This document shows, one piece after another, positions 30,434 to 61,820 of a stretch of DNA of 64,000 nt. The notes below the pieces were generated by a model. It searched no databases and was not told the origin of the DNA. It worked only from the letters and a program-made list of their open reading frames with translations. The position numbers were made by a program, and so were the translations under genes. Position 1 is the stretch's first letter; each line of letters begins with the position of its first letter. Source of the DNA: a virus; IMG/VR virus record IMGVR_UViG_3300045988_103705; one strand, 5' to 3'.

Positions 30434-30685
30434 TTATATTCTCCATGTACGAAACTCTTTGAACTGCTCTTCCAGATCTTGTTGATAGTTATAAACTTCG
30501 AGAACCCGTTGCATATTTAAGCTATTAGTCCTATCAATAAGACTAATCGCTTCATTTCTATCAACTGCATAAATAGGGTAATCTTCAAAGGAAAATTCAT
30601 CAACTGCAATAATGCAGTATTGATTGATACCATTATCACCACGGATTACCATATCGCGAACTTCTGCATAACTTGCTATAGACAT
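30434..30685 (-). CDS. hypothetical protein
   Basis: 83 aa. Confidence 0.35.
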   Translation of the reverse strand: MSIASYAEVRDMVIRGDNGINQYCIIAVDEFSFEDYPIYAVDRNEAISLIDRTNSLNMQRVLEVYNYQQDLEEQFKEFRTWRI

Positions 30686-30703
30686 GGCACTCTCCCCTTT
30701 TAT

Positions 30704-30778
30704 TGGCAGGGCGAGTAGGATTCGAACCTACAGTCATGGTTTTGGAGACCATTGGTTTAGCCATTAACCGATCGCCCT
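30704..30778 (-). tRNA. tRNA-Trp(CCA)
   Basis: anticodon stem ATGGT/ACCAT, loop CTCCAAA; G73. Confidence 0.7.
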
Positions 30779-31017
30779 ATGTAAGCTGAGCGTCCCCAGC
30801 CCTAATCGAGTTACTTTGGAGCTGCTTCCACTGACGGGCGAACTCGATAAACAAAAGCCTTTTGTTCTACACTCTAGTCAAAGCAGCATGACACCCTAGT
30901 GTAGCATGGCCTCTGTGGTCTTTGTCCCACAAAGAATTTTTCGAACCGAACTCTTTGCACATGATAGAATTTTGCGTTAGGTATTCACCCTGCCATCTAT
31001 CAAGGCTGACATTCGGT

Positions 31018-31094
31018 TGGTGCTCCGAGGCAGATTTGAACTGCCGACCTCGCGATTATCAGTCGCGTATTCTAACCAACTGAACTACCGAAGC
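31018..31094 (-). tRNA. tRNA-Ile(GAU)
   Basis: anticodon stem CGCGA/TCGCG, loop CTGATAA. Confidence 0.7.
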
Positions 31095-31330
31095 ATATAA
31101 TAGGTTCGTTTCGGCGTCACCCGCATTGAGGAGAACCATTTCCCCAGTCTGAGGCCTTAGGGCATACCTCGACGACAGCCCAGCGTTATGTCCGCCAACA
31201 GAAAGTTTTTTGACACCCAGTTTATCACTTTCAACTTTTCCGCCGAAGAATGGCGTGGCTTTCCTTTATACGCCTCCGAGGAGGAGCTTCCCGCAGTCTA
31301 TTCGCCCCGGCTACGAGGGGTGGAGCAAGA

Positions 31331-31406
31331 TACCGGATTCGAACCGGCCCTTTCTGCTTGGAAGGCAGACGTGCTAGCCGCTAACACTAATCCTGCATAT
31401 GGTAGT
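31331..31406 (-). tRNA. tRNA-Gly(UCC)
   Basis: anticodon stem TCTGC/GCAGA, loop CTTCCAA; U73. Confidence 0.7.
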
Positions 31407-31677
31407 TTCCCTGTTTTTTAGAGGTACTACCTAACCCAAGTCGACTTTGTCGTTTGTTCACAGATAACCCGCTCAAACAAAACAAACCAAAATGCGGAGA
31501 TGAACGAAATTGTTTTCTTCTTCTTGAATCAGAGAATCGTCATCAAGTTGTCCCTAAGTCATGCAGTCTTCGTAACGCCAGACTACCAGAAACGCTACTC
31601 GGTTTAACCTTGACTGAAAATTCTCGTGCACAGAATAACAGTTGTGTCTCACTCAAGAGTAGAAATGGTGCGTGTGG

Positions 31678-31754
31678 CGAGATTCGAACTCGCGACTCCC
31701 TGCTTAAAAGGCAGGTGCTCTAGCCTACTGAGCTACACACGCGACTGTAAACTT
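31678..31754 (-). tRNA. tRNA-Lys(UUU)
   Basis: anticodon stem CCTGC/GCAGG, loop CTTTTAA. Confidence 0.7.
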
Positions 31755-31994
31755 TTAAAGTTCACTTAGGATATTATCGAGAATCTTTTCAAAATCTTCA
31801 TCCTCAACATAGAACATCTCATTCATAGTTTTACGATCAGTAAGAGAATGATCTGCATTACATCTACAAACTAGCACTTCAAGAAATTGCCAAAAGCGCA
31901 GATTTGGATTAGTCTTTCGCCAAATAACCTCAATCTTATTAGCAATACTAGAAATGCGATTTGCGTCTCTCACACTTAATCCTCCTCTAGCCAC
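31755..31994 (-). CDS. hypothetical protein
   Basis: 79 aa. Confidence 0.35.
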   Translation of the reverse strand: MARGGLSVRDANRISSIANKIEVIWRKTNPNLRFWQFLEVLVCRCNADHSLTDRKTMNEMFYVEDEDFEKILDNILSEL

Positions 31995-32251
31995 ATATCT
32001 TCACTAAACAATTCTCGATATTTGTCATCATCGACAATTAACTGTCTACATCTGCGGGCTTCAGGCTTTGCGTCGTATCTATCAAGGAATTTAGCATCAT
32101 CAGTCAAGAACCCTTGCACTAAATCTTCTTTATCCCATTCATACCCCATCTGATATGCTTCTTCGAGGCAATCTGCATGGCGCTTCCCGCAAATAATTAC
32201 AGGGTACTTACTAAAGTGAGGAATAAATTTAATTGCAGAAGCAATAATCAT
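31976..32251 (-). CDS. hypothetical protein
   Basis: 91 aa. Confidence 0.35.
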   Translation of the reverse strand: MIIASAIKFIPHFSKYPVIICGKRHADCLEEAYQMGYEWDKEDLVQGFLTDDAKFLDRYDAKPEARRCRQLIVDDDKYRELFSEDMWLEED

Positions 32252-32524
32252 AACTCAAAACTTCCTTTCCTTAACTTTCTATATATATTATATAATAAAA
32301 ATTAAGAATTTTCAAAAAGATTTTTATGCTTGAGTTTTCTATTAAAGGAACCTTTTCCTTTCTTTGCTCTTGTTATAGAACCTCTCTGTTTAAAATGAAG
32401 ATATTCTTGCAGCTCTTCTGGAGATTTCTTTTGAGCCTGCTTTATAGTTTTTAAATTCATTTTACTAGACCCCTTTTCATCTTATTATGTACCAAAAACA
32501 TATGATTTAAAGTTGCTGAATAGG

Positions 32525-32601
32525 TCTATGGGGTGTACGACGAGACTTGAACTCGCACCTCTCAGAGCCACAATCTGATGCTCTACCAATTAAGCTACGC
32601 A
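32525..32601 (-). tRNA. tRNA-His(GUG) with an encoded G(-1)
   Basis: anticodon stem TCAGA/TCTGA, loop TTGTGGC; an extra 5' G pairs with C73; CCA encoded. Confidence 0.65.
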
Positions 32602-32786
32602 CAACATATTGGCAATAGATTTTAATATCGGGTATTAGCCTCAGGCCTTTGCGCTCGGAATTGGCGGTACAATTCTCTGCGCCCTATCTAACCCTATCCG
32701 ACTCGATTTACCATACGGACTGCTTGATAAAGTGGCCACAATATCTTGCAGGCTTTCTTGCCGCGTTTAAACGCCTCTGCCGAGGC

Positions 32787-32862
32787 TGGAGCTGGATAAG
32801 AGACTCGAACTCTTAACCTATCGCTTACAAGGCGATTGCTCTACCTATTGAGCTAATCCAGC
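32787..32862 (-). tRNA. tRNA-Thr(UGU)
   Basis: anticodon stem ATCGC/GCGAT, loop CTTGTAA. Confidence 0.7.
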
Positions 32863-33246
32863 GTATAATGGCCGGTATAAACCCCGGCTCGGGTTAAGAA
32901 AATCGACAGTATGCTCGTTTCCGCACTATACACCAACCGCCAGCTTAATCGCCGGCCGTATGGGAGTCGAACCCATTCCTCTGTCTTTCGGTTTTGGCCT
33001 TCTCTTCCCCATAGGCTCCCGCAGCAGTACCGAAAAACTTGACGAGATTATATTGAAGTTGTTTTTGTCTCATTGAGACCGGCAGGCGGCTATACTTCCA
33101 AACCTTCACAAGCCCTATTATTTCGTTAATCGCTTGTATTGTCACCGCAAGCAAACGGAACTACTTAGTCGGTTTTCGTAGTTGACACAATAGCCTCGTT
33201 TATATGCGGCCGGCATATACAACAGTGTCTTATCCCGATTGGCTAT

Positions 33247-33339
33247 TGGCGAAGGGGAGAGGATTCGAACCTCCGGACCGTGTTTCCACAATCAAGGGAT
33301 TAGCAATCCCTCGCATTCAACCTACTCTGCCACCCCTCC
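33247..33339 (-). tRNA. tRNA-Ser(GCU)
   Basis: class II; anticodon stem AGGGA/TCCCT, loop TTGCTAA; long variable arm. Confidence 0.7.
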
Positions 33340-33737
33340 AAATATGTTTCCTCTGCGTTTTATGGGCTTGGAACCATCACCTATCGGCGGCCGCATTAAA
33401 CATAAAAGTTATCTATCACTATGAATAACTTCTGTTTCTGCGAAAATGAAATCATCAATATCCATCATTTTTTAATACCTCCTTAATTTATTTTAATCGG
33501 TAGTGCCATTCTAACAGCCTATCTTGCACTTTTGATAGGTTCCCGATTCGCTAGTCTTTTATATATAAATCTCTATTGAGAAAATAATCGGTGCCAACTT
33601 AATTTTTTAACGAGGTCGTTGACTTCCATCCCCGAACTCTTTTCGTTACTCCAGATTTTATCTCTCAGCCAGCCGATTTCTTTATACAGCGCTATATAAA
33701 GCCGCTTCAACTGAGCCTTTAGGTTCTTGGCACCTAA

Positions 33738-33812
33738 TGGGTGCGGGAGCGAGAATTGAACTCGCGTAATCGAGTTTATGAGACTCGACTGGGAACCAAC
33801 ACCCTTCCCGCG
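33738..33812 (-). tRNA. tRNA-Met(CAU) with a C1.A72 mismatch (initiator-like acceptor end)
   Basis: anticodon stem CGAGT/ACTCG, loop CTCATAA; acceptor CGCGGGA/TCCCGCA leaves C1 opposite A72; C73; no GGG/CCC in the anticodon stem. Confidence 0.55.
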
Positions 33813-34124
33813 ATATACAGCTATTAGAATTAAATTATAATGAAACCAAAATATATTTTTACTACTTAACGCCTAGACACTCTTGAGTTGGTCTGCGTTG
33901 CCACTCCTCGCTTTTTATTCTCGCCTCATATATTCTATATTTTGGAATAACTCTAATAGCCACGGTACTCTTGCGCCCCTCCGCTGGATGTATCAGCCGG
34001 AACCGTTTCACTTTAATTAAGCAAGGGCGTGCCACATATCAATAATTCATTCTTGCCGTACCATACTCTACGCACAAGAAAGGCCCGTCTTTTCTTTCAC
34101 TCGAAACTGTGGAACCCATACATC

Positions 34125-34202
34125 TGGTGACCTTGGAGGGATTCGAACCCATCAACCTCCACCTTGAGAGGGTGGCGACTTTGCCATTTCGTCGACAAGG
34201 CC
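34125..34202 (-). tRNA. tRNA with anticodon CUC (Glu-type); weak T and D stems
   Basis: perfect anticodon stem CCACC/GGTGG, loop CTCTCAA; acceptor GGCCTTG/CAAGGTC. Confidence 0.45.
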
Positions 34203-34241
34203 ATTTAAAGAGCAGTTTATTGACTTGCTCAGGTCTTTTAG

Positions 34242-34478
34242 TTAATCGCTAAGTTCGACGGCGCCACATTTAGTGAACACCTGCACGGGAGTTCCGTTCA
34301 ACTCGTTGTCCTCAAGAATGGAATAATCACAAATATAAACATTTGTGTTACCAACCTTGCGAAGCGGGTTTCCGCAATTAGAACACTTACGTTCCTTTTC
34401 CACATTCTGCGGAACCTTAATTCCGAGAGCCTTACCAAGCTCTACGAAAGAGTTGAACTTCCCGTGAACATTCTTCAT
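34242..34478 (-). CDS. zinc-ribbon protein
   Basis: CSNC...C pattern, 78 aa. Confidence 0.35.
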   Translation of the reverse strand: MKNVHGKFNSFVELGKALGIKVPQNVEKERKCSNCGNPLRKVGNTNVYICDYSILEDNELNGTPVQVFTKCGAVELSD

Positions 34479-34506
34479 AATAGCAATCTCCTTTTCTATT
34501 GTTTAA

Positions 34507-34581
34507 TGGTACTCGGTACGGGAGTCGAACCCGTGTTTCTGGCGTGAAAGGCCAGCGTCTTTACCGCTTGACTAACCGAGC
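34507..34581 (-). tRNA. tRNA-Glu(UUC)
   Basis: anticodon stem CTGGC/GCCAG, loop CTTTCAC. Confidence 0.7.
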
Positions 34582-34833
34582 ATATCTGCACTTTTAATAA
34601 TCTCTTTCTGTCTTATTTAATAATAGCTATTGTTTATTATAAGCTATACTGTCATTACTATATATAAAGAGAATATTAACTTATCTTCTAGTTGGTGAAC
34701 AGCGGCGTCACTGAAAACCACCTATTTCTATTAAGGACGGAAATAGGAATGCCCTATTGTTCTTATGGCAATGAAATCAATAAAAACCTGTAATCATTAG
34801 ACGGTATCATATATAATTATTAGTAGATACCTA

Positions 34834-34909
34834 TGGTGGAACATACGAGGGTCGAACTCGTGACCTCCTGCTTGCAAGGCAGGCGCTCTCCCAACTGAGC
34901 TAATGCCCC
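34834..34909 (-). tRNA. tRNA-Ala(UGC)
   Basis: G3.U70 in the acceptor GGGGCAT/ATGTTCC; loop CTTGCAA. Confidence 0.75.
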
Positions 34910-35123
34910 ATATTGTGATTAAGATGATTGGTCGTGTCAATCAAGGAGAACTACGCTCTAATTTATCGGCTACTACAGTCCAATGTGCCAGGCATCAACC
35001 TAAAAGGGACACCGCATTGCTGATTCGCTTGCGCGCTATCGCTGCCTATATACGACTTGCGATACTTTGTTCTTTCTTAACCTTATATAAATATTATACA
35101 ATATTTTTTATTGTTTTTCAAAT

Positions 35124-35164
35124 TGGCGATGACGACGGGGTTTGAACCCGTGACCTTCGGCGTG
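35124..35164 (-). tRNA. tRNA-Asp(GUC) 3' exon
   Basis: CACGCCGAAGGTCACGGGTTCAAACCCCGTCGTCATCGCCA; 3' anticodon stem GCCGA, T-arm, acceptor 3' strand CGTCATC, G73, CCA. Confidence 0.65.
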
Positions 35165-35632
35165 CCTTAGTGATTATAGTGTGGATAGAATATCTTCAGC
35201 TTTAAAATCTTTAGCCTGCTTTTGAGTAGATAATCTTGTGGCAACAGTCCAAAACTTAGTCTCTACTGTTCCAAAAACGGGGAACATATAAAACTTTCCA
35301 TTAAACTCTGTCATAAAATAGTCTACATCTTTAGCAGAATAAGTCATTTTTTTAACTTTTCCGTTTTCTCGCACTTCATATTTAGTACGAACAAGAAATC
35401 CAGTTTCCTCTACCGGCATAGCGTGTTTTACTTGAATTTTATAGAATTTGCCGTTCTTCTCTATCACTAAATCATACTTTTGATGATTTCCAATCGGGAT
35501 AAGAACATTCCAACCGTTCTCAATTAAATACACCTAACATTTAAGCTCTGTAATATCTCCAATCTGAGATGGATTTAATTTCTCCAATGCTATTAATCCT
35601 CTCTCTAAAGATATTCTCTATCAATTTCCAAG
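35165..35632 (-). other. intervening sequence (putative self-splicing intron) in the tRNA-Asp anticodon loop
   Basis: 468 nt between anticodon positions 35 and 36; ends in G; contains ORF 35174..35533. Confidence 0.5.
35174..35533 (-). CDS. intron-encoded ORF (possible homing endonuclease)
   Basis: 119 aa, balanced composition, YDLVIEKNGKFYKIQVK segment; entirely inside the tRNA-Asp intervening sequence. Confidence 0.4.
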   Translation of the reverse strand: MYLIENGWNVLIPIGNHQKYDLVIEKNGKFYKIQVKHAMPVEETGFLVRTKYEVRENGKVKKMTYSAKDVDYFMTEFNGKFYMFPVFGTVETKFWTVATRLSTQKQAKDFKAEDILSTL

Positions 35633-35668
35633 ACAGGCCGACGTTCTAGCCTACTGAACTACGCCACC
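35633..35668 (-). tRNA. tRNA-Asp(GUC) 5' exon
   Basis: GGTGGCGTAGTTCAGTAGGCTAGAACGTCGGCCTGT; acceptor pairs with the 3' exon (two G.U pairs); the joined loop is CTGTCAC as in bacterial tRNA-Asp. Confidence 0.65.
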
Positions 35669-35772
35669 GTATAAGGCGAGGAAGGGTCATACGCACCCCG
35701 TGTGCTTTGCGCCTCGTCGTTCACATATATCACACTTCTGACTTATTGGGCATGGGAAATCAGTAGAAACCA

Positions 35773-35859
35773 TGGTGCGCATGATGGGACTTGAACCCAT
35801 ACGCTCTTACGAACACGAGCACCTCAAGCTCGCCTGTCTGCCGATTCCAGCACACGCGC
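35773..35859 (-). tRNA. tRNA-Leu(GAG)
   Basis: class II; anticodon stem CGAGC/GCTCG, loop TTGAGGT. Confidence 0.7.
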
Positions 35860-36016
35860 ATATTTCTATGGTATTGATCGAGTTCCAAGGCTTCCTCTTT
35901 TAATACTGACTAGCCATCATAAATGCTTGGCCATTTACGACAAGAAATCCAGTCTTCAACTACGGGCCATAGCTCCGCCGGTTATATGGGTTTAAGACAA
36001 TGTCACCGGAACCATC

Positions 36017-36093
36017 TGGTGTTCCCGGCGGGAGTCGAACCCGCAACATCATGGTTCTAAACCACGCGTGTCTGCCTATTGCACCACGAGAAC
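36017..36093 (-). tRNA. tRNA with anticodon UAG in a class-I cloverleaf
   Basis: anticodon stem CGTGG/CCATG, loop TTTAGAA; 5-nt variable loop; acceptor GTTCTCG/CGGGAAC, A73, CCA. Confidence 0.55.
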
Positions 36094-36219
36094 ATAAAAG
36101 AGCAACTATTTGTTTCAGAACTACCCGTCGCTCTATTGGGCCAGCCTATTATTTTAGTTCGCAGTGGACGAATTGAGAGTTTAGGGTTAAAGTCGCGGCG
36201 CTACTCACAAACTCGACTT

Positions 36220-36296
36220 TGGCGGGAAGGGTGGGGCTCGAACCCACGACATCTTGCTTAACAGGCAAGCGCTCTACTCTTCTGAGCTACCGACCC
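36220..36296 (-). tRNA. tRNA-Asn(GUU); acceptor with two mismatches
   Basis: anticodon stem CTTGC/GCAAG, loop CTGTTAA; T-arm GTGGGTTCGAGCCCCAC. Confidence 0.55.
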
Positions 36297-36409
36297 AAGC
36301 TCAAGGCAGAATAAATAAACTTTCTTAAACCAAAAATAAGTGTTTTATTTAATAAAAGATTTGCTGTGTCTGCCTTATATAAATATTATACAATATTTTT
36401 TATTGTTTT

Positions 36410-36616
36410 TCAAAAAAGATTCAGTTGTTTAGCTTCATCATAAGAAATACCAAAGGTATCCTTGAAAGTTGCGTTAAAGTTCTCCCACTGTTCCTCGGGG
36501 CCACCAACTCCACCATTCATAAGCCAAATAGCATCACAAATACTATCCTCATTTTTATAACAAGAAAGAGCCTCGGCCGCGAGTTGTGCAAGATATAACT
36601 TCTTATCCATATGCAA
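36410..36616 (-). CDS. hypothetical protein
   Basis: 68 aa. Confidence 0.3.
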   Translation of the reverse strand: MHMDKKLYLAQLAAEALSCYKNEDSICDAIWLMNGGVGGPEEQWENFNATFKDTFGISYDEAKQLNLF

Positions 36617-36695
36617 CTTCCTTTCTTACTTTCTATAAATATTATATCATATTTATAAAAGTTTTTCAAATGTTTTCAAGACGCTAGCTATTTAG

Positions 36696-36769
36696 CTCCG
36701 GAAATCGGATTCGAACCGATAATTTTTCACTTTGAGTTGAAATGTCTTAACCATTTGACTATTCTGGAA
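36696..36769 (-). tRNA. tRNA-like gene with an irregular anticodon loop (possible CAA)
   Basis: acceptor TCCAGAA/TTCCGGA (one mismatch), T-arm ATCGGTTCGAATCCGAT, stem TTTCA/TGAAA around an 8-nt loop ACTCAAAG; no encoded CCA. Confidence 0.4.
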
Positions 36770-36820
36770 ATAGATTTGCTGTATGCGTCTTATAGCAAGA
36801 GGGCCCTCCTATTGGGTCTG

Positions 36821-36896
36821 TCCTCTTAAATGGTACTCCGAGCTGGACTCGAACCAAGCATCAAGCGATTATAAGTCGCCCGTTCTAACCTTTGAA
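36821..36896 (-). tRNA. tRNA-Ile(UAU)
   Basis: anticodon stem GGCGA/TCGCT, loop CTTATAA; acceptor ACTCCGG/TCGGAGT, A73, CCA. Confidence 0.6.
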
Positions 36897-37383
36897 CTAC
36901 CGGAGTATAGATAAAGTGAGTATTTTATTTAACGCATATCAGCCCCACTCACGCCTTACCTGTGCAATTATTTATAGTTACTGTCGATAACTTATATAAA
37001 TATTATATAATATTTATTTTTATTTTTCAAATAATCAATAAGGAGTAGGTGTTCCATAAAGACCAGTAATATCAATATCATTACATAGATCTCTAGTCAC
37101 ACAAGTTTCAAGTTCTGCCTGAGAAATAATCTCTTCCTCCGCTAGAGGTTCATCACTCTCAATAGTAGCAAGGATAGTGAAAGAAACTGCATAAGTATAT
37201 TTACTCATAAACTCAAAACTTCCTTTCCTTAACTTTCTATATATATTATATAATAATTTTTTTTATTTTTCAAGGAAGCGTAAGTTCTAGAAAATATTTC
37301 TCTTACGCTTCCCTTTTAGTAAGGAAGTTTGTACTATTATTAAACTTTATATTAAATATCTTAATTACCCATACCCAAAATTT

Positions 37384-45707: not shown

Positions 45708-45872
45708 AAGTAAAACCTCTTTTCTTATTTATATAAATATATTACCATATTTTATTAAGATACGCAAGTAAATCTTATGGATTATAACGAACCGTCATAA
45801 TTTCTCACGGATGCGGGAATTTTTTAGACAGAAAAATTGGCAATCCCGCAGGAATTTTAATAAAATGGTCAT

Positions 45873-45995
45873 AGAGGCATTTTTGTCCAAAATTTTCTAC
45901 GAGTGTCCAAAAATTTCTAATAAAATGTCCAATTTTTTCTAATAAGTTGTCCAGAAATTTCTAATGGTTGGTCTAAAATCTGATATTGTGGACAT
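45873..45995. repeat. iteron array: five direct repeats of about 24 bp, TGTCCAAAAATTTCTAATAAAA
   Basis: tgtccaaaattttctac / tgtccaaaaatttctaataaaa / tgtccaattttttctaataag / ttgtccagaaatttctaatgg / ttggtctaaaatctgatattg, then the inverted repeat TGTGGACA; directly upstream of the RHH gene. Confidence 0.7.
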
Positions 45996-46089
45996 AGTAT
46001 AATTGTAATAAAAAAATATTAAAAAAGTTGGACAACCGCAATTAATTATGTTATAATAAAAGTAAAGATATAGTAGAGAGGTGATTTAT

Positions 46090-46228
46090 ATGGCTTAGAT
46101 AGCAGCTCGTATTTCTGAGGAAGAAAAACAAGAGTTAGAAAAGTATTGTAGAGAGCACGATATTAAATTGTCATAGCTTATTAGATGGGCTATAAAAGAA
46201 TATATTGAGAAAAATAAAGTAGACTAAA
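46090..46228 (+). CDS. ribbon-helix-helix (CopG/Arc-like) DNA-binding protein, TAG-recoded; frame continuity across the A-run at 46138-46143 needs checking
   Basis: GAGAGGTGA Shine-Dalgarno plus ATG. A one-base frame adjustment in the A-run gives MAQIAARISEEEKQELEKYCREHDIKLSQLIRWAIKEYIEKNKVD. This has the full ribbon-helix-helix pattern and uses two TAG as Gln. Confidence 0.4.
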
Positions 46229-46254
46229 GGAGATTAAACTAAATGACTAATGAT

Positions 46255-46464
46255 ACTTATAAAGTTTTTACAGTAAAGTTAGCACGCAAACTCTGTGATC
46301 TTGGTTTTATTATTGTTGGAACTGTTCCTAATGTTTAGAAACCTTGGTTAAATGTTTATCTTTTTGAAGATAGTTAGGATTTAAGGGATGCAGTTTAGAA
46401 GTATAAAGGGATAAGTTCGCTATTGGAGGATGATTGCCATGGCAGACAAAAGAAGAAGTCCTAA
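46255..46464 (+). CDS. hypothetical protein, TAG-recoded; start region unresolved
   Basis: frame KVFTVKLARKLCDLGFIIVGTVPNV(Q)KPWLNVYLFEDS(Q)DLRDAV(Q)KYKG... ends TAA at 46462-46464; the nearby ATG at 46244 may need a 1-nt frame adjustment. Confidence 0.3.
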
Positions 46465-46828
46465 TTAGCGAACTATTAATCATATTCATAAGGAACCATG
46501 TGATACTAATAATATATATGCTAGGATTAATAAGGAAGCGTTATTTGCGGCCCGTAGAGAGTTGACAGATGGAGAGTTTTCTTTGTGGATATTTTTTGCT
46601 AGTCAATCTGAGAAGTTAATTGATTATGATTTTGGGCCTACTATTATAGAAAAAGAGCTTGGTATAAAGAGAGCGAAATATACAAGTGCAATAGATGGAT
46701 TGGTAAAAAAGGGATATTTAGTTCCAGTTGAGAGAAAAGGATATTACGATTTTTACGAGATTCCTATTGATAGTGACGACGACAAGTATAATTATATAGC
46801 TCCAAACGGAGAGAAATTTTCTTTTTAA
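46439..46828 (+). CDS. winged-helix protein (replication-initiator or regulator-like), one in-frame TAG
   Basis: GGAGGA plus ATG at 46439; TAG at 46466-46468; ...IEKELGIKRAKYTSAIDGLVKKGYLV winged-helix segment; the track ORF 46562..46828 is its C-terminal part. Confidence 0.45.
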
Positions 46829-46837
46829 TCGTATTTC

Positions 46838-47100
46838 TGCAATACTATGAAAAATTTCATGTATTTCTGAGAATACTATGATTTCATCATATTGTGAAAA
46901 AGCTATGAAATTTTCATGTATTTGTTGGAAAGCGATGAAATTGTTTTCATGGTATTCTGATAATACTATGAAATTAAATAAAAAGGATTTTCATAGCTTT
47001 CCAACAATACCATGTCATAGTATTCTGACAATACCATGAAAGTAAATAAAAATCCATTTCATGGTATTCTGACAATACAACAAATATAACATATATTAGA
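46838..47100. repeat. second iteron array (TTTCATGGTATTCTGACAATAC-type repeats; ATGAAA/TTTCAT inverted motifs)
   Basis: at least seven partly inverted copies of aatactatgaaa / tttcatggtattctga(c/t)aatac in 260 bp of AT-rich ORF-free sequence. Confidence 0.65.
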
Positions 47101-47173
47101 TAACAGAGTTAAGATAACAGTCGCGACTTTTTTTATGTATTTGTGAAAAAGCGATGAGTAGGAGGATTAAGGC

Positions 47174-47593
47174 ATGGAAGTATTTAAACCGATTAAGGTA
47201 GAAAATTATCAATTCATGAAGAATGGATTAAATTAGTATGAACCAGTATTAGTTTACTTTAAAGATGATGAAGAAGAAGGCAAGGTATATTTTGTAAAGA
47301 ATAAATTTGATGATAAGTTAGAAGAATGGATGGAAGAGAATTTAAAGGTAGAAGGAAGAAGTAGAGTTATAGTAGATAAGTATCATAATAGGATAAGTAT
47401 AGATGTTTTTACTCAAGATTTAGAGGACTCTATAACCGATTTAGAAAAACGAATTGAAAAGTTAGAAGAAGGTTTTAGAGAAATCGAATTGAAAAATCGA
47501 GATAAAAATGGAGAGATATATGATTTGGTTGGAAGGATAAGAGAGATAAATAGAACTGGATAGAGATGTAGATTATCTTTATATGAAGATTGA
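47174..47593 (+). CDS. hypothetical coiled-coil protein, TAG-recoded
   Basis: GGAGGA plus ATG at 47174; TAG at 47237 and 47561 read through to TGA at 47591. Confidence 0.45.
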
Positions 47594-47726
47594 AAGAAAT
47601 TAAAGGAAATTAAAAGAAGTTTATAAAATGATGGAGTTGGGTGCCGATCGGGTCTAGGTACGAACCATCACAACACTCGTCACAACGATCGTAAACCTAG
47701 CCTTCCGCAATTATAATATATAAAAA

Positions 47727-47760
47727 AGGAGAGAAGCTACAATACTTCTCTCCTTTAATC
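47727..47760. terminator. bidirectional hairpin terminator
   Basis: aaaaaaggagagaagctacaatacttctctcctttaatcttttt. Confidence 0.6.
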
Positions 47761-47772
47761 TTTTTCCTCTTG

Positions 47773-48228
47773 TTACTTTAGATGCTTCAAAAACTCCATA
47801 ATATTATCTTCATCAGACCGAGTATTACCCTTAATCTGAGACATACTCTTCGCGAGAGTATCAGAAATAGAATCAACAGCAATGTCAATTACTTCATCAA
47901 GACTCTCTGCATTAACAACCTTAGCGGAAGTCTTAGCAGTTACAGTCATAGCCTGCATAAACTGCTCAATATCCTTAGCTGTCCACTTAGGATTGCTCTT
48001 GCTATAAACCAACGCAGCCACACGGCCAACGTCATCCTCAGTAAGAGACAAGTCATCAACATTTTCATAGAAAGTAGACTCAATCTCATCCAGAAGATTA
48101 TCTCGCTCATGGTCTGCGGCGTTAGCCTCGGAGATTCTATTCATGGCATCAGTAAATGCCTTTGCAATCTCCTCCTGAGTAGAACCATTCTGCATTGCAT
48201 CACGAATCATAATCTCATAACTATTCAT
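47773..48228 (-). CDS. hypothetical protein
   Basis: 151 aa acidic. Confidence 0.4.
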   Translation of the reverse strand: MNSYEIMIRDAMQNGSTQEEIAKAFTDAMNRISEANAADHERDNLLDEIESTFYENVDDLSLTEDDVGRVAALVYSKSNPKWTAKDIEQFMQAMTVTAKTSAKVVNAESLDEVIDIAVDSISDTLAKSMSQIKGNTRSDEDNIMEFLKHLK

Positions 48229-48327
48229 AATAAGTTCTTTTAGTTAGAAAAGCGTTATGATGCTTCTTAAACTAAAATCCTCCTTTTCTTTATCTTATGT
48301 ATATATTATATTATATTTTTTATATAT

Positions 48328-48960
48328 TGTCGAACCGATCGGGTCTAGATAAAAAGATCGCTTTAACGGAATCCCGCGGAAAAGATTTTTACTTTTTAAA
48401 TTGTTAGCAACATCTTTGCTATTGTTTGCTGTATCTTTAATAGTTTTAATTCTGTGAATATCAAGAAATTTTGAGAAAAACGAGGCATTTTTTGCTTATT
48501 TTTAAGTAAATTTGTTAGAAAAACGCGTATTTTTGCAAGATTTTAGAGGTTTTTCGTTATATTTTGCGATAACAAGAGGTAAAATAATGCGGACCGATCG
48601 GTTTATCTAGCTAAAATCTCTATTTTTGAGCTATTTTTATCATAAAATCGTGTTAAACCGATCGGTTCCGCGAAAGAAAACTCTGGTCGTATTTGTTTTT
48701 CATAGCTATATCTTTGCTATTGCTAGTTGTATCTTAGAAAGTTTTGGTGCTATGAATACTTGACAATTTTAAGATTTTTATTATAAAAATTTGGACGAGA
48801 GAGCCAATATTGTCGAACCGATCGGGTTTAGATAAAGGAAGAAGTAAAGTAGGGCCGATCGGTGTTTGGGAGAGGGCGTTATGAATTTTGGGAAAATCGC
48901 TATGAAGTTGCGTTATGGCCAAGTTGCTATGAAAATTTGCGCTATGGTCCGATCGGGGAA
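48328..48960. repeat. cluster of CCGATCGG palindromes in an ORF-free region
   Basis: accgatcgggtctag (48330), ccgatcggt (48597), accgatcggt (48662), accgatcgggt (48817), gccgatcggt (48853), tccgatcggg (48950); one more at 47642. Confidence 0.6.
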
Positions 48961-52808: not shown

Positions 52809-53012
52809 GAGGAAAAGGAAATTTTTATTGCGATTTACTGCAAGCTACTGGGCATTAGAACGGCCTATTCTAACGGCGTTCACTCGACTTACGACACAAT
52901 ATAAATTTACTTCCTTTACTTTCTAAGAGTTCGCGACCTCTTGATTTCTTGGCCTTCCCCTCTTGACAAATATATAATACCATACTTTCGGGATAATTAC
53001 AAGATGGCAAAT

Positions 53013-53043
53013 TGCACAAAATTTGCAAGCCAAAATTGTGCAA
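53013..53043. promoter_or_regulatory. palindromic operator TTGCACAA-N15-TTGTGCAA (perfect 8-bp inverted repeat)
   Basis: ttgcacaaaatttgcaagccaaaattgtgcaa; GC hairpin 53062-53095; terminator hairpin 53115-53137. Confidence 0.6.
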
Positions 53044-53363
53044 CATCGACAAAAACAAAAACTCGGCTCGCCGCGTGCGCCAGCGAGCCGCCCAAACGAT
53101 ATTAAAGAGTAAAAATAAGAGGGCCGAAGCCCTCTTAATATCCAAGATATTCTTTATTGATAATCTCGTCAAGCCAATAGCTCAAATCTTCAAGCGAAAT
53201 ATCGTCATCAATTTCATTGTCGGCCATAACCTGATCAATTTGACCAATGAGAATGGACGCATTTTTCAATACTTGTCGCTCTTCCTCGCTGAGGATAAGC
53301 CTATTAACCTTTCTAATCTTCATTTACAAAACTTCCTTTCTTATTTTAAGATTGACTGGTGGA

Positions 53364-54027: not shown

Positions 54028-54489
54028 TTAACTTTCACATATATTTGCAAGAAATCTTGCAGAAAGTTTAACCATGTCATGGACAGATTCTTCGTTATTG
54101 CTATTTTTATAGCAAATAAAACCAACCTGGTCGCCATTCACAAGAATTGGTGTAATAAACATACTTTCCCATTTTGTCGCCGAACTGCGAATATCAATCC
54201 AGTCATCGGGAACTCTTGTAATTCCAAAGGAACGCGGCCCGCATAAAATTCCATCATTGTCAAAAATAGCCGCGGCGATTCCGTTAGATGAAAGGGCATT
54301 TTGCATTTGTTTAGCGTAAGAGGAAAATTCTCCCATTATAGAATATTTCTTAAAAACTACGCCGCCATCTTCTTCAAGAAAAATCTCTAATGGGTCGCCT
54401 TCTCTAATATGAAGGTTTCTACGGATTTCCTTTGGAATTACTATCCGGCCCAAATCATCAATACGGCGCACAATTCCAGTAGCTTTCAT
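54028..54489 (-). CDS. SpoVT/AbrB-family transcriptional regulator (swapped-hairpin N-domain plus C-terminal sensor-like domain)
   Basis: GIVRRIDDLGRIVIPKEIRRNL. Confidence 0.6.
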   Translation of the reverse strand: MKATGIVRRIDDLGRIVIPKEIRRNLHIREGDPLEIFLEEDGGVVFKKYSIMGEFSSYAKQMQNALSSNGIAAAIFDNDGILCGPRSFGITRVPDDWIDIRSSATKWESMFITPILVNGDQVGFICYKNSNNEESVHDMVKLSARFLANICES

Positions 54490-55172: not shown

Positions 55173-55508
55173 TCATATACTCACCCCCGCAAAGGAAACT
55201 TCCGCAAAGTTGATATTGAAACGCTCCCATTCACTTTCCATACCTAACATCATATCATGGAAAAGGTCATCACGATTTTCATATCCATCTTCTTCCAGAA
55301 TAGCCTCCCATTCTCCATCGTCATATTGATTTTCCAGATAATCCAAAGCAGACTTGCGGGCGGCGATGGTATTAGACGCTACGCAGATAGGTTTATCGTC
55401 GTATCCGTCCGTGACCAAAATCATTTTCTTTTCTTCCATGATTTTTTCTTTCCTTTCTTTCGAGGTGTTTCTGTCTCCCTCTTTCTGATAATAATATACC
55501 ACAGGCAA
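55173..55508 (-). CDS. hypothetical acidic protein
   Basis: 111 aa. Confidence 0.35.
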   Translation of the reverse strand: MPVVYYYQKEGDRNTSKERKEKIMEEKKMILVTDGYDDKPICVASNTIAARKSALDYLENQYDDGEWEAILEEDGYENRDDLFHDMMLGMESEWERFNINFAEVSFAGVSI

Positions 55509-55550
55509 AGCAGAAAGTCAAGCGATTTTAGGAAAAAATCTTTCGTCAGA

Positions 55551-55582
55551 TTGCACAACAATTCGAGCCTAAAATTGTGCAA
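55551..55582. promoter_or_regulatory. palindromic operator TTGCACAA-N16-TTGTGCAA
   Basis: ttgcacaacaattcgagcctaaaattgtgcaa; GC hairpin 55596-55632. Confidence 0.55.
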
Positions 55583-56354
55583 ATTGCCTCTTGATAAAAA
55601 ATTCCGGCCGCGCCTGTGGTGCACGGCCGGGCGAACGAATAAAAAAAAAGAACCTCCTGAATTTCAGGAGGTCATTAATTTCTGCATACCAACAACTCCC
55701 TTTCTTTTGAGAAGTCAATCGGCATTTTCAACAATCTTTAATCCGTTTGCTTGGATAATTTTCATAGCTTCTTCAAGCGAGGAATCAACCGATCCGCAGT
55801 CAATACAGATATATTTTCTACCATCTTTTACCATAGTAGTAAAATAGTATTCCTAACCGGAAGTAAGTCCCATTTGTTCACGCAAGCGAATCGGAATCAT
55901 AATTCTACCACTTGAATCTAATTTGCGAGAGAAAGTAGTTTCTTGCATTTTGATAAATAAATTCTAGTGACCTAGGCTCGTGCGAAAAACGACTCCATCA
56001 CGGGAATCGCCGATTTAGAACAATCGGAAGGAACATTTACCACTCGCAAGGCATTTTCTGGCAGAACTGAGACATAGGACAATTTTTACAAGAATCCTAG
56101 TTCAAACAGAACTCCAAAATAACCGCGAGTGCTTTCAGCACTTCTAAGGTCATTAGAAAAACTCCTTTCTTTATTTTTCTATAATTATTATAATATATTT
56201 TTTTGAAAAAATCAATAGGGCCGGCATTACGCCAGCCCTAATCTCTGCAACCAAACCAGATGGTATTTACCAATGTGAAGTAGAACTGTGCCATATCCCT
56301 TATCCGTCCAGACAGTGGAGCCGATAGGATATGTGTGCGGTAAACGCTCAATAC

Positions 56355-60681: not shown

Positions 60682-61035
60682 TTACTCATATTTACACCTA
60701 TTCATTCTACAGTCTATTGTACATTGCCCTGATGCTCCCTCACAAGGAATAGCATCAGGATAGTGTTCGAAATAAGACGAGGTTAATAGAACTTCATATC
60801 CAAGTTCCCGCAGTATTCTTTCTGCGACATATCTATCTCTTAATTTAATCCATTCTTCTCTATTTACTTTTGTTTCTTCATATATTTTTCGAGATTCTTC
60901 CATATCTATTGTTATGATACCATCGGTGTTAGTTTTAAATACTGAAGGACTTTGTGTATGATAAAATTTTCGAAAGGGATTGTTAATATGAAGAACTTCT
61001 TCAGCATATTTGTCAAAATCTCCCGAAAATTTCAT
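60682..61035 (-). CDS. hypothetical protein
   Basis: probable start at MKFSGDFDKY; the longer track ORF overlaps FolD. Confidence 0.3.
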   Translation of the reverse strand: MKFSGDFDKYAEEVLHINNPFRKFYHTQSPSVFKTNTDGIITIDMEESRKIYEETKVNREEWIKLRDRYVAERILRELGYEVLLTSSYFEHYPDAIPCEGASGQCTIDCRMNRCKYE

Positions 61036-61058
61036 TATCTTTGCGCCTGTTTCGCTAA

Positions 61059-61820
61059 CTATAAACAATTTTTCATCAACCCCAATCTTGTTAATAGACC
61101 TACTCCTCCGGGGACAGGAGTTGACCATACATTATTTCTTTTTGCAATTTCATCAATTTCTACAAAGTCTCCAAGAATAATTCCTGCTTCATTTCTGCGA
61201 ATACCAACATCTATAACAATAGCGTTAGGACAGGCTTCTCTTGTTAAGCTAAATTTTCCTACCGCAGAGACAATTAAATCTGCTTGCCTTGTTAAATAGA
61301 GTTTTGTATTTATATCTGTTTTGCTATGACATACTGATACGGTCATATTTCTATCCAGTAGAGCTTTAGCCATTGGCTTTCCTACAATATCGCTTCTTCC
61401 CAAAATAACAGCAGATTTACCTTCGTAGTTAAAACCACATTCATCCAAATAGTCTATAATTCCTCTTACTGTTGCTGGAGTAATATTGCTCATAGGATTT
61501 AAACCATCCGCATCTTTAGAGATAGGTATTTGACTATAATTGAAATCAATTCCATTTGCTACTGGCATTTGAACTATTACCGCATCCCAGTCTTTCGCAT
61601 GGCCTAAGAGTAATCTTAACTCTACTGAACTATTCGCTCTAAACACTTCTGCTTCCCAACCAAGAGCATTAAAGTCTTTTATTTTATTACGAATATAAAT
61701 TTGATTTGCGGGATCCTAGGCTGTTGCGTCGATAATCATGAGTGATGGAACATTACCACTAATCTCCCGCAATTTGTTTACCTATTGTTGAAAATATTCT
61801 TTTATATTAATCTATTGCAT
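61059..61820 (-). CDS. folD: bifunctional methylene-THF dehydrogenase/cyclohydrolase FolD, TAG-recoded
   Basis: C-terminal half VILGRSDIVGKPMA...VSVCHSKT...LIVSAVGK...IVIDVGI...TPVPGGVGLLT; the N-terminal half continues upstream through at least two in-frame TAG (DATA(Q)DPANQIYIRNKIK); start uncertain. Confidence 0.55.

What the first reader, a model, noticed from the sequence alone, without database searches (positions are those of the whole stretch)
45873..47100. Two iteron arrays flanking an RHH regulator and a winged-helix protein
Five 24-bp direct repeats (TGTCCAAAAATTTCTAATAAAA) sit immediately upstream of a 45-aa RHH gene. After the winged-helix gene comes a second 260-bp array of TTTCATGGTATTCTGACAATAC/ATGAAA repeats. 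This is the classic layout of an iteron-controlled origin or a genetic switch. It also marks the boundary where transcription changes from the minus to the plus strand.
Basis: seen in the sequence. Interest (0 to 1): 0.6.

Follow-up and report, generated by a model that had tools for sequence, protein, structure and literature searches.

The report
Iteron origin module in recoded phage
A small three-gene island in a large, uncultivated gut phage that reads the TAG stop codon as glutamine most likely holds the phage's replication start site: a minimal DNA-binding initiator sitting next to nine copies of its own binding site, which is a familiar design in an unfamiliar setting.

Summary
Both repeat arrays are real and are the two strongest tandem repeats in the 64-kb window, but they are different things.

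**Array 2 (46824-47159).** It has nine ~29-bp dyad-symmetric units (TTTCATGGTATT-CTGAC-AATACCATGAAA) just after a 129-aa winged-helix gene. That protein belongs to a family of over 500 members related to the N-terminal origin-binding domain of phage replication initiators. In 9 of 11 lineages examined, a different dyad-symmetric array follows or lies inside the gene, as in lambda ori. Best reading: a replication origin with a minimal initiator (confidence about 0.6).

**Array 1 (45884-45965).** It has four 18-bp repeats at 20-22-bp spacing. It is specific to this lineage, varies in copy number and is absent from most relatives. Its repeats resemble the TTGGACA element at the -35 of the island promoter. 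That element changes together with the DNA-contacting residues of the RHH protein, so array 1 is probably an accessory operator array, not an origin iteron array.

- All four island genes carry in-frame TAG codons read as Gln. The flanking genes carry none, and a CTA-anticodon tRNA lies at 20097-20171.
- A DUF5659 gene lies between the RHH and winged-helix genes.
- The strand switch and GC-skew blip cover only a 1.7-kb island.

Origin activity itself is untested.

The parts
45812..45850 (.). Conserved imperfect palindrome at the left edge of the island (GCGGGAATTTTTT..AAAAATTGGCAATCCCGC). It contains the -35-like TTGGCA of an upstream promoter-like site, TTGGCA-18-TAAAAT (45837-45866, plus strand).
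   Evidence: The element is present in every relative, including distant ones (L013, L050, L051). RNA fold z-score is -2.4. The promoter-like site came from the scan. Function unknown.
45884..45986 (+). Array 1. Four 18-bp direct repeats TGTCCAAAATTTTCTAAT at 45884, 45904, 45926 and 45948, plus a weak fifth at 45969-45986. Each repeat carries an A4T4-type tract.
   Evidence: It has 3-4 copies in the 92-96 % relatives and is absent from the 78 % group and from L013, L050 and L051.
45989..46057 (+). Promoter-proximal segment. It holds inverted TGGACA copies at 45989-45994 and 46029-46034. The main island promoter is TGGACA-17-TGtTATAAT (46029-46057).
   Evidence: This is the best sigma-70-type match in the region, 11 of 12 positions plus an extended -10. 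AAAAGTTGGACAA is invariant in all four lineages with the class-A RHH. This segment and the RHH gene exchange together as one cassette.
46090..46227 (+). RHH gene, 45 aa, with in-frame TAG at codons 3 and 29. Probable autorepressor of the island promoter.
   Evidence: Pfam DUF6290 scores 32 bits against a 27-bit cutoff, and PHROG Arc-like repressor families match. TAG at codon 29 aligns with CAA (Gln) in the ~78 % relatives L011/L012.
46243..46464 (+). DUF5659 gene, 73 aa, three in-frame TAGs. It is a conserved upstream partner of the winged-helix gene.
   Evidence: The window protein scores 22.5 bits on Pfam DUF5659, just under the 23.6-bit cutoff. Close homologues carry a precomputed PF18903 hit. 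A called DUF5659 gene directly precedes the winged-helix homologue in L048, L049, L051 and L052 and lies one 57-aa gene upstream of it in L015. Read-through translation shows a DUF5659-like ORF in the same place in L013 and L014. The fold search was uninformative.
46439..46828 (+). Winged-helix gene, 129 aa, TAG at codon 10. It consists of a DNA-binding domain, a short linker and a conserved C-terminal tip ..NGEKFSF.
46824..47085 (.). Array 2, units 1-8. Dyad-symmetric ~29-bp units start at 46824, 46855, 46882, 46912, 46945, 46989, 47013 and 47057. The consensus is TTTCATGGTATT-CTGAC-AATACCATGAAA. Units 3, 4 and 6 carry a variant half-site, AAAGCKATGAAA.
   Evidence: Units are gained and lost between strains. 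Units 7-8 with their spacer are 95.6 % identical to L005, against 84 % for the winged-helix gene and 69 % for the left part of the array. The small ORFs inside the array are not conserved, because indels shift their frame.
47079..47125 (.). Conserved segment after unit 8 with three RATAACA repeats (ATATAACA, AGATAACA, AGATAACA). It is the candidate unwinding region. A promoter-like site, CTGACA-17-TATATT (47069-47097, plus strand), has its -35 inside unit 8.
   Evidence: The same AGATAACA repeats follow an unrelated iteron type in L014, and AGAATACA x3 follows in L013. GC content is 27.7 %, no lower than the rest of the array.
47131..47159 (.). Array 2, unit 9 (TTTTATGTATTTGTGAAAAAGCGATGAGT). 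It abuts the ribosome-binding site of the next gene.
   Evidence: repeat family D3. It is conserved in the 78 % group.
47174..47593 (+). Coiled-coil gene, 139 aa if TAG at codon 130 is read through, with another TAG at codon 21. It is a variable passenger and not part of the conserved core.
   Evidence: It is replaced by unrelated short genes in L005 and L013 and is partly deleted in L004 and L006.
47725..47756 (.). Bidirectional intrinsic terminator that closes the plus-strand island and the converging minus-strand gene 47773-48228.
20097..20171 (-). tRNA with a CTA anticodon (amber suppressor). It is needed in trans to translate all four island genes.

Best explanation
The island at about 45.8-47.76 kb is a compact replication-initiation module.

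**Proposed mechanism.**
1. A sigma-70-type promoter (46029-46057) transcribes three genes: an RHH protein, a DUF5659 protein and a 129-aa winged-helix protein.
2. The winged-helix protein is a minimal initiator. It has an origin-binding domain of the lambda-O / DnaD-N-terminal kind, a short linker and a conserved C-terminal ..KFSF tip.
3. It binds as dimers to the nine dyad-symmetric units just downstream of its own gene.
4. The resulting nucleoprotein complex opens the adjacent conserved segment (47079-47125). The two best-conserved units, 7 and 8, lie next to that segment.
5. The C-terminal tip recruits a helicase, loader or primase.
6. A promoter whose -35 lies inside unit 8 may help activate the site by transcription, and it also drives the next gene.
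7. The RHH protein represses the island promoter through the TTGGACA element at the -35. In this lineage array 1 supplies 4-5 extra copies of that element.
8. Every island gene contains TAG codons, so the proteins can be made only once the phage's CTA-anticodon tRNA is present.

**What is shown:** the anatomy, the homology, the conservation, the matching changes between protein and site, and the codon usage.

**What is inferred:** DNA binding, unwinding, recruitment, repression and timing.
For: **Family membership.**
- The winged-helix family has 520 representatives.
- 46 of 66 members hit PHROG 270 'replication initiation protein', 29 hit the DnaD-like loader family, and 25 hit an O-like family, always over the N-terminal part of those profiles.
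- 22 of 66 hit Pfam HTH_36.

**Arrays follow the gene across lineages.** Nine of 11 lineages have 3-12 tandem dyad-symmetric repeats (period 23-30 bp) starting inside or within about 100 bp after the winged-helix coding part. Each lineage has its own sequence.
- Window: GTATT-CTGAC-AATAC core.
- L013: CCTC-TGA-GAGG core inside the same TTTCAT..ATGAAA frame.
- L014: GGGTTCA-AAA-TGAACCC.
- L045: TCATAGG..CCTATGA.
- L015: GTTGTTTT-CTGAC-AAAACAAC, 4 copies inside the gene.
- L048: AAAAGTGGG-AAAAA-CCCACTTT, 3 copies inside the gene, followed by two 13-bp AT-rich direct repeats.
- L044, L047 and L051/L052 each have further types.

This is the lambda ori layout described in PMC7466680.

**Specificity and conservation.**
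- The sites occur nowhere else in the 64-kb window.
- The core at 47016-47105 is 95.6 % conserved, against 84 % for the gene itself.
- In L050 the third gene and its repeats are replaced together by an unrelated HTH protein with its own GACAAAA repeats.

**Genomic context of relatives.** In small temperate relatives the homologue lies between the integrase and repressor genes and the terminase genes. No gene there carries a Pfam replication-family hit, although several small genes remain unannotated. In L054 it sits on a plasmid-like contig with a resolvase.

**C-terminal tip.** The aromatic tip is conserved: KFSF, EFEF, SFVF and IFIF in this clade, and DDDLPF-like in other members.

**RHH and its operator.** Four class-A lineages (DNA-facing strand residues Q, A, R) share AAAAGTTGGACAA at the -35. 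Class-B lineages (T, S, R) have TTTTAGGACAAA instead.

**Recoding.** The island has 8 TAG in 386 codons. Twenty-three flanking genes have 0 TAG in 3872 codons (Fisher p = 4e-9).
Against: - There is no functional data of any kind.
- The window protein itself is below curated thresholds: HTH_36 19.2 bits against a 25-bit cutoff, PHROG 270 E = 0.04.
- A profile comparison with lambda O is not significant (E = 0.38).
- The protein has no C-terminal domain like those of lambda O or DnaD.
- No helicase, loader or primase gene is in the island or elsewhere in the window.
- The supposed unwinding segment is no more AT-rich than its surroundings: 27.7 % GC against 26.5 % for the whole array.
- Its conservation could equally reflect the promoter that overlaps it.
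- GC skew gives no origin signal beyond the coding-strand effect.
- Two of the 11 lineages (L054, L055) show no array.
- TAG-dependent translation is unexpected for a protein needed early, although replication genes are reported as variably recoded (bioRxiv 10.1101/2021.08.26.457843).
Confidence: 0.6

Rival explanations
1. The island is a purely transcriptional switch. The winged-helix protein is a local repressor or activator, and its nine operators control the promoter inside unit 8 (47069-47097), and therefore the downstream gene. They may also block transcription running through from the island promoter. The RHH protein and array 1 control the island promoter. Replication is not involved.
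For: - A promoter-like site has its -35 (CTGACA) in the centre of unit 8. The same geometry recurs in L013, where CTGAGA lies in the last unit and TAGAAT lies 17 bp downstream (read from the L013 sequence; window site).
- Unit 9 abuts the ribosome-binding site of the next gene.
- The best-conserved core coincides with this promoter.
- The protein is only a DNA-binding domain.
Against: - The regulated gene would be a non-conserved passenger. It is different or absent in L005, L013 and L014, while the array is always kept.
- Nine to twelve sites is far more than operators need.
- In longer family members the repeats lie inside the gene's own linker-coding region, where they cannot serve as an operator for a downstream promoter.
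- Homology points to initiator families.
- The conserved C-terminal tip suggests that a partner is recruited.
Confidence: 0.2
2. The module is an acquired or selfish mini-replicon, or an origin decoy, carried by the phage and not its main origin. One version is an incompatibility or exclusion device that soaks up the initiator of competing phages, like cloned phage origins that confer resistance. Another is a remnant of a temperate-phage replication cassette.
For: - The island has lower GC (0.30-0.31 against 0.376 for the window), lies on the opposite strand, and is bounded by a conserved palindrome and a terminator.
- The same trio of genes occurs in small temperate phages.
- Cassette exchange is frequent. 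The RHH variant in the window is about 85 % identical to that of the unrelated locus L051, and in L050 the third gene is replaced.
- The island sits among auxiliary and early genes, far from any replisome gene.
Against: - The island is kept at the same place in every relative found, down to 49 % protein identity.
- It uses the phage's own TAG recoding.
- The core of the array is under strong purifying selection.
- No second candidate origin is visible in the window, since no other repeat array exists there.
Confidence: 0.1
3. Array 2 marks the physical genome ends or a packaging site. In this view it is a pac or cos region bound by a small-terminase-like winged-helix protein.
For: - Four long contigs (98-143 kb; L003, L007, L033, L042) end inside array 2.
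- Small terminase subunits often have a winged-helix DNA-binding domain and bind repeated sites (established knowledge).
Against: - The four contig ends fall at different positions, from about 46937 to 47027.
- L033 ends in three identical 27-bp tandem units, which is a typical assembly break.
- Logan contigs also break there.
- Most contigs read straight through the array.
- There is no terminase gene nearby, and the protein's relatives match initiator families, not terminase families.
Confidence: 0.05
4. The palindromic units act as RNA or single-stranded DNA hairpins in the transcript between the winged-helix gene and the next gene, for example to stabilise or process the RNA or to attenuate transcription.
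For: - The array is transcribed with the operon, because no terminator occurs before 47725.
- The symmetric change of both half-sites in L013 preserves pairing.
Against: - Units 3, 4, 6 and 9 combine two different half-site types and would pair only over the outer 6 bp.
- In long family members the repeats are translated as the linker.
- No Rfam family matches.
- The unit sequence changes with the divergence of the adjacent DNA-binding protein, which a hairpin model does not predict.
Confidence: 0.05

Closest known systems
[quoted passage not shown]
   Same: - The initiator's N-terminal winged-helix domain is encoded just before a tandem array of inverted-repeat iterons.
- The iterons are followed by a segment thought to unwind.
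- Iteron number varies between relatives (4 in lambda, 6 in Stx phages), as it does between strains here.
- The iterons next to the unwinding segment matter most in lambda, and the equivalent units are the best conserved here.
- Transcription close to the origin is a feature of both.
   Different: - The protein here stops after the DNA-binding domain and keeps only a short conserved C-terminal tip.
- Its iterons lie outside the gene.
- There are nine units of about 29 bp, not four of 19 bp.
- No P-like loader gene follows.
- Sequence similarity to lambda O itself is not significant.
Replication initiators of phages and plasmids of Gram-positive bacteria built on a DnaD / DnaB N-terminal or RepA_N winged-helix domain (PHROG 270, 186 and 428; PDB 5wtn, 4pta, 2vn2, 8ojj)
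   Same: - The best fold matches and profile matches are to this group.
- The fold is a winged helix with an N-terminal strand extension.
   Different: - Only the first ~100-200 positions of those 300-450-residue profiles are matched.
- The C-terminal DnaD-like domain is missing.
P1 plasmid-prophage replicon: incC iterons, repA, incA iterons (own knowledge)
   Different: - In P1 both arrays are bound by the same RepA protein and share one sequence.
- Here the two arrays are unrelated in sequence.
- Array 1 is dispensable in relatives.
- Array 1 resembles the RHH operator, not the winged-helix sites.
Arc / Mnt / CopG-type RHH autorepressors (Pfam DUF6290, RHH_1; PHROG Arc-like repressor)
   Same: - It is a small RHH protein encoded first in its operon.
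- The candidate operator overlaps the -35.
- Operator and repressor are exchanged together as a cassette.
   Different: The extra upstream array of 4-5 operator-like repeats at two-turn spacing is not typical of these repressors. It looks more like the repeat arrays bound by ParR- or omega-type RHH proteins, but no partition ATPase is present.
TAG-to-Gln recoded gut phages (crAss-like, Lak, Phass-1 group; bioRxiv 10.1101/2021.08.26.457843; PMC10607447; PMC9523058)
   Same: - A CTA-anticodon suppressor tRNA is present.
- In-frame TAG sits at conserved Gln positions.
- Only a subset of genes is recoded.
- The closest deposited genome is Phass-1, at 69.5 % nucleotide identity over one gene.
   Different: The literature emphasises recoded structural and lysis genes. 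Here a small regulatory and initiator island is recoded in the middle of a TAG-free block.

Membership tests
Lambda-type / O-like phage origin-initiator pair | The initiator has an N-terminal winged-helix origin-binding domain homologous to known phage initiators. | tested here: inconclusive
   The window protein is below thresholds: HTH_36 19.2 bits against 25, PHROG 270 E = 0.04. Its phmmer relatives do match. P0005 (49 % identical) hits PHROG 186 at 3.5e-5 and PHROG 270 at 3.9e-4, and 46 of 66 members hit PHROG 270, best 1.5e-11.
Lambda-type / O-like phage origin-initiator pair | A tandem array of dyad-symmetric initiator-binding repeats lies inside or next to the initiator gene. | tested here: met
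   Nine units lie at 46824-47159, starting 2 bp before the stop codon. Nine of 11 family lineages have equivalent arrays with lineage-specific sequences.
Lambda-type / O-like phage origin-initiator pair | An AT-rich unwinding segment flanks the iterons. | tested here: inconclusive
   A conserved segment with three RATAACA repeats follows unit 8, and similar repeats follow unrelated iterons in L014 and L013. Its GC content (27.7 %) is no lower than that of the array, and AGATAACA is not enriched in the window.
Lambda-type / O-like phage origin-initiator pair | The initiator has a C-terminal domain that recruits a helicase loader, and a loader gene lies next to it. | tested here: not met
   The protein ends 20-30 residues after the winged helix. 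Only a conserved ..NGEKFSF tip remains. The downstream gene is a non-conserved coiled-coil protein.
Lambda-type / O-like phage origin-initiator pair | The locus supports initiation of DNA synthesis. | not testable with these tools
   This needs read-depth profiles, plasmid replication assays or 2D gels.
Iteron plasmid replicons (Rep_3 / RepA with direct 19-22-bp iterons; P1 incC-repA-incA) | The Rep protein has two winged-helix domains, and identical direct-repeat iterons on both sides are bound by that same Rep. | tested here: not met
   The model shows a single winged-helix domain. The two arrays have unrelated sequences. There is no tblastn match in 72,556 plasmids.
RHH autorepressor (Arc / CopG / DUF6290) | The protein has ribbon-helix-helix sequence signatures. 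| tested here: met
   DUF6290 scores 32 bits, above the 27-bit cutoff. PHROG 876, 3180 and 582 repressor families match at E 8e-7 to 2e-4.
RHH autorepressor (Arc / CopG / DUF6290) | The operator lies at the protein's own promoter and matches its DNA-contacting strand. | tested here: inconclusive
   This rests on comparison only. Class Q-A-R lineages (window, L013, L050, L051) have TTGGACAA at the -35, while class T-S-R lineages have TAGGACAA. However, the 92-96 % relatives combine a class-B RHH with an array 1 made of class-A-type sites. Binding has not been tested.
RHH-type plasmid partition centromere (ParR / ParG / omega with repeat arrays) | A partition NTPase gene lies in the same operon. 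| tested here: not met
   No NTPase is present in the island.
TAG-to-Gln (code 15) recoded phage | A suppressor tRNA with a CTA anticodon is present, and in-frame TAG sits at conserved Gln positions. | tested here: met
   The tRNA lies at 20097-20171. TAG at codon 10 of the winged-helix gene is a position where Q is at least 90 % conserved in the family. TAG at codon 29 of the RHH gene aligns with CAA in L011. The sigma factor, FolD and a tail-like gene also carry TAGs yet give strong family hits when TAG is read as Q.

The most novel reading that the evidence does not exclude
The module is an origin gated by the genetic code. Every protein of the island begins with or contains TAG; the RHH gene has one at codon 3 and the initiator at codon 10. 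Neither the initiator nor its regulator can therefore be made until the phage's own amber-suppressor tRNA has accumulated. Origin firing, or a switch to a second mode of replication, would then be timed by the code change and not by a transcription cascade. In addition, the family would define a minimal initiator design: a winged helix, a linker often encoded by the iterons themselves, and an aromatic C-terminal tip. This initiator would work with the previously uncharacterised DUF5659 partner.
Probability: 0.2. Interest if true: 0.65.

Novelty: new variant of a known kind. Interest (0 to 1): 0.45.

Why it matters
- **Starting point for experiments.** Origins of replication are unknown for essentially all uncultivated, stop-codon-recoded gut phages. 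This locus gives a concrete, testable candidate together with its cognate protein.
- **A family that reveals its own binding sites.** The same analysis defines a large uncharacterised family of over 500 clusters of minimal winged-helix proteins. Their binding sites can be read directly from the DNA beside each gene. That is useful for origin annotation, for designing phage-derived replicons, and for studying how DNA-binding specificity evolves.
- **Recoding beyond late genes.** It extends the picture of TAG recoding from structural and lysis genes to a small regulatory and initiator cassette.
- **A caution for screening.** A local GC-skew flip and a strand switch here reflect only a 1.7-kb opposite-strand island.

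Tried and rejected
- **Nucleotide search of the island.** blastn of the 2-kb island against 50,697 phage records found nothing.
- **Protein searches in curated collections.** tblastn of the winged-helix protein against phages and plasmids, and of three family members against phages, found nothing. Every link to known initiators therefore rests on profile or fold comparison.
- **RNA families.** An Rfam scan of 44-51 kb found nothing credible.
- **Solved structures by sequence.** A profile search of PDB sequences returned only generic winged-helix hits.
- **Lambda O.** hhalign against lambda O was not significant.
- **Array-1 18-mer in IMG/VR.** Eight extra hits were single chance matches inside unrelated genes.
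- **Contig ends as physical termini.** Rejected. The ends fall at different positions, and one contig ends in perfect tandem units.
- **ORFs inside the arrays** (46878-47039 plus strand, 46825-47037 minus strand, 45795-45995 minus strand). Rejected as coding, because the frames are not conserved and array 1 is absent in relatives.
- **Long plus-strand 'TAG' ORFs at 7996-8565 and 8879-10567.** Rejected as antisense artefacts on the basis of their low-complexity translations.
- **AGATAACA as a dispersed motif.** It is not enriched in the window.
- **GC skew as an origin test.** It is uninformative here.
Full report
**Setting**

The window has 37.6 % GC. It carries 31 tRNA genes on the minus strand between 19 and 37 kb, including one with a CTA anticodon at 20097-20171. 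Most genes lie on the minus strand. They encode NAD-salvage enzymes, tRNA-repair enzymes, a TROVE/DUF2828-like RNA-binding protein, an ATPase and many unknowns.

Relatives are human-gut contigs of 96-164 kb. Several lie at 143-148 kb, which is probably the genome size. The closest deposited genome is the TAG-recoded phage Phass-1, at 69.5 % nucleotide identity over one gene (PMC10607447). The window is therefore part of a large uncultivated phage that reads TAG as a sense codon.

**Recoding**

With TAG read through, the plus-strand block contains four genes:
- RHH, 46090-46227, with TAG at codons 3 and 29.
- DUF5659, 46243-46464, with three TAGs.
- Winged helix, 46439-46828, with TAG at codon 10.
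- A coiled-coil protein, 47174-47593, with TAG at codons 21 and 130.

Three observations support TAG = Gln:
- RHH codon 29 aligns with CAA in the 78 % relatives.
- Codon 10 of the winged-helix gene is a position where Q is at least 90 % conserved across 66 family members.
- Public gene calls for this protein already carry Q at that position.

The island has 8 TAG, 5 CAA and 0 CAG in 386 codons. Twenty-three flanking minus-strand genes have 0 TAG, 63 CAA and 39 CAG in 3872 codons (Fisher p = 4e-9). Other TAG-bearing genes in the window give strong family hits when TAG is read as Q. These are a sigma factor (62242-63312, 11 TAGs), a FolD-like gene and a tail-like gene.

**Checking the observation**

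Array 1 has four 18-bp repeats at 45884, 45904, 45926 and 45948, spaced 20/22/22 bp. A fifth copy is poor.

Array 2 has nine units at 46824-47159. Each is an inverted repeat of about 29 bp with the consensus TTTCATGGTATT-CTGAC-AATACCATGAAA. Units 3, 4, 6 and 9 carry a variant half-site. Both arrays are far beyond chance, are confined to this locus, and are the two best tandem repeats in the window.

The strand 'boundary' is a 1.7-kb plus-strand island. It starts at a strong sigma-70-type promoter, TGGACA-17-TGtTATAAT (46029-46057). It ends at a bidirectional terminator (47725-47756) shared with the converging gene 47773-48228. GC skew is positive only over this island, and cumulative skew keeps falling afterwards to a minimum near 62 kb. 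The skew therefore reflects coding strand only.

**The winged-helix protein**

A word-indexed search found only close relatives. An exhaustive phmmer search found 520 cluster representatives with E <= 1e-3, all matching over the first ~110 residues.
- Of 66 sampled members, 22 hit Pfam HTH_36. In PHROGs, 46 hit family 270 (replication initiation protein), 29 hit family 186 (DnaD-like loader), and 25 each hit families 428 and 678 (initiator, O-like). The matches always cover the N-terminal part of those profiles.
- The window protein alone is sub-threshold.
- An AlphaFold2 model (pLDDT 85) is a winged helix with an N-terminal strand.
- The C-terminus is a conserved aromatic tip..NGEKFSF here, and EFEF, SFVF or IFIF in relatives. 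Other family members end in a DDDLPF-like tip that resembles the SSB C-terminal tail. The SSB comparison rests on my own knowledge.

**Array 2 goes with the winged-helix gene**

All relatives at 78-96 % nucleotide identity keep array 2. Units are gained and lost between strains. The stretch at 47016-47105 holds units 7 and 8, their spacer, and the segment ATATAACATATATTAGATAACA. It is 95.6 % identical to L005, against 84 % for the gene and 69 % for the left part of the array.

More distant homologues each carry a different dyad-symmetric array at the same place:
- L013 (49 % identical): TTTCATGTACCTC-TGA-GAGGATTATGAAA, starting inside the 3' end of the gene.
- L014: GGGTTCA-AAA-TGAACCC, about 12 copies, with three AGATAACA repeats in the middle.
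- L045: TCATAGG..CCTATGA.
- L047, L044 and L051/L052 have further types.
- L015 and L048 are long forms, with four and three 23-bp dyad repeats inside the linker-coding part of the gene. In L048 these are followed by two 13-bp AT-rich direct repeats.

L054 and L055 show no array. The rule therefore holds in 9 of 11 lineages.

This is the arrangement of ori-lambda. [quoted passage not shown]

In small temperate relatives the homologue lies between the integrase and repressor genes and the terminase genes. No neighbouring gene there carries a Pfam replication-family hit, although several small genes remain unannotated. In L054 it sits on a plasmid-like contig with a resolvase. In L050 the third gene and its repeats are replaced together by an unrelated HTH protein with its own GACAAAA repeats, as expected for an initiator and origin cassette.

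**Array 1 and the RHH protein**

Among about 20 relatives, array 1 has 3-4 copies in the 92-96 % group and in L034. It is missing from the 78 % group, where a ~135-bp segment is absent, and from L013, L050 and L051.

The RHH gene and the promoter-proximal segment exchange as one cassette. The window alone carries variant A, whose DNA-facing strand residues are Q, A and R. This variant is about 85 % identical to the RHH of the otherwise unrelated locus L051. All close relatives carry variant B, with T, S and R.

All four class-A lineages share AAAAGTTGGACAA at the -35. Class-B lineages have TTTTAGGACAAA. This suggests that the RHH protein binds there.

Read on the other strand, the array-1 repeats are W4-TTGGACA, the class-A type of site. 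In the window, array and RHH class therefore match. In the close relatives the array is an orphan next to a class-B RHH. Array 1 also lies between an upstream promoter-like site (45837-45866) and the main promoter. Its A4T4 tracts recur every two helical turns and should curve the DNA; this last point is an inference.

Array 1 is best seen as an accessory, lineage-specific operator or architectural array, not a replication iteron array. My confidence in that reading is moderate to low.

**Contig ends**

Four long contigs end inside array 2, but at different positions. L033 ends in three identical 27-bp units. Logan contigs also break there. Assembly breakage at a variable repeat explains this better than physical genome ends.

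**Verdict**

- Array 2 with the winged-helix gene is most likely a lambda-style origin with a minimal initiator (about 0.6).
- A purely transcriptional role is the main rival (about 0.2).
- The RHH gene with the TTGGACA element and array 1 forms the control region of the island.
- DUF5659 is a conserved partner of unknown role.
- The module is a new variant of a known kind. Its unusual features are the initiator reduced to a DNA-binding domain plus a C-terminal tip, the iterons lying outside the gene, the expanded and variable array, the DUF5659 partner, and TAG-dependent translation within a TAG-free neighbourhood.
- No function has been demonstrated.

Noticed in passing
window 47644-48956: Seven copies of the 8-bp palindrome CCGATCGG lie in about 1.3 kb of apparently non-coding DNA just right of the island. 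The whole window has 9 copies against 0.29 expected. Several sit in a longer shared context, GAACCGATCGGGTCTAGAT, and two lie immediately upstream of minus-strand promoter-like sites (48333-48305 and 48807-48780). A copy is also present at the matching place in L013.
   Followed up: partly
window 47626-47712: An 87-bp stretch between the coiled-coil gene and the terminator is 91-92 % identical in the 78 % group, more conserved than its flanks. It contains CCGATCGG and ACGATCGT. The RNA fold z-score is only -1.2 to -1.3, and there is no Rfam match.
   Followed up: partly
window 62242-63312 (+), 61035-62139 (-), 21622-22959 (-): Several other genes are heavily TAG-recoded while most of the window has none. 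These are a sigma factor (PHROG 5767, 11 TAGs), a FolD-like dehydrogenase/cyclohydrolase (4 TAGs) with its upstream neighbour (6 TAGs), and a tail-like protein (4 TAGs). The divergent point near 62.14-62.24 kb is where gene orientation and GC skew really switch in this window.
   Followed up: partly
window 5020-6249 (-), 52855-53046 (-), 55257-55856 (+), 47174-47593 (+): In several genes a TAG lies 1-9 codons before the TAA or TGA stop. For example, the NAMPT-like gene has TAG at codon 408 of 409. TAG may act as a leaky or early stop backed up by a second stop.
   Followed up: no
L003, L007, L033, L042 (contigs of 98-143 kb): Four long metagenomic contigs end inside array 2. L033 ends in three identical 27-bp units. 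This was read as assembly breakage at a variable tandem repeat.
   Followed up: yes
window 19040-36906 (-): An array of 31 tRNA genes is interspersed with short ORFs. The window also encodes tRNA-His guanylyltransferase, polynucleotide kinase, phosphoesterases, a nucleotidyltransferase and a TROVE/DUF2828-like RNA-binding protein, which together look like a tRNA repair and maintenance kit. NAD-salvage genes are also present.
   Followed up: partly
L051 vs L052 (third gene, 189 vs 248 aa): Near-identical strains differ by about 60 residues in the length of the winged-helix homologue, yet both end in an aromatic tip (..SFVF and ..IFIF). The L052 gene carries its TTCCGG..CCGGAA repeats inside the linker-coding part.
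   Followed up: no
window 54028-54489 (-): The N-terminal 50 residues of a 153-aa protein match phage antitoxin families (PHROG 4681, E = 3e-20).
   Followed up: no
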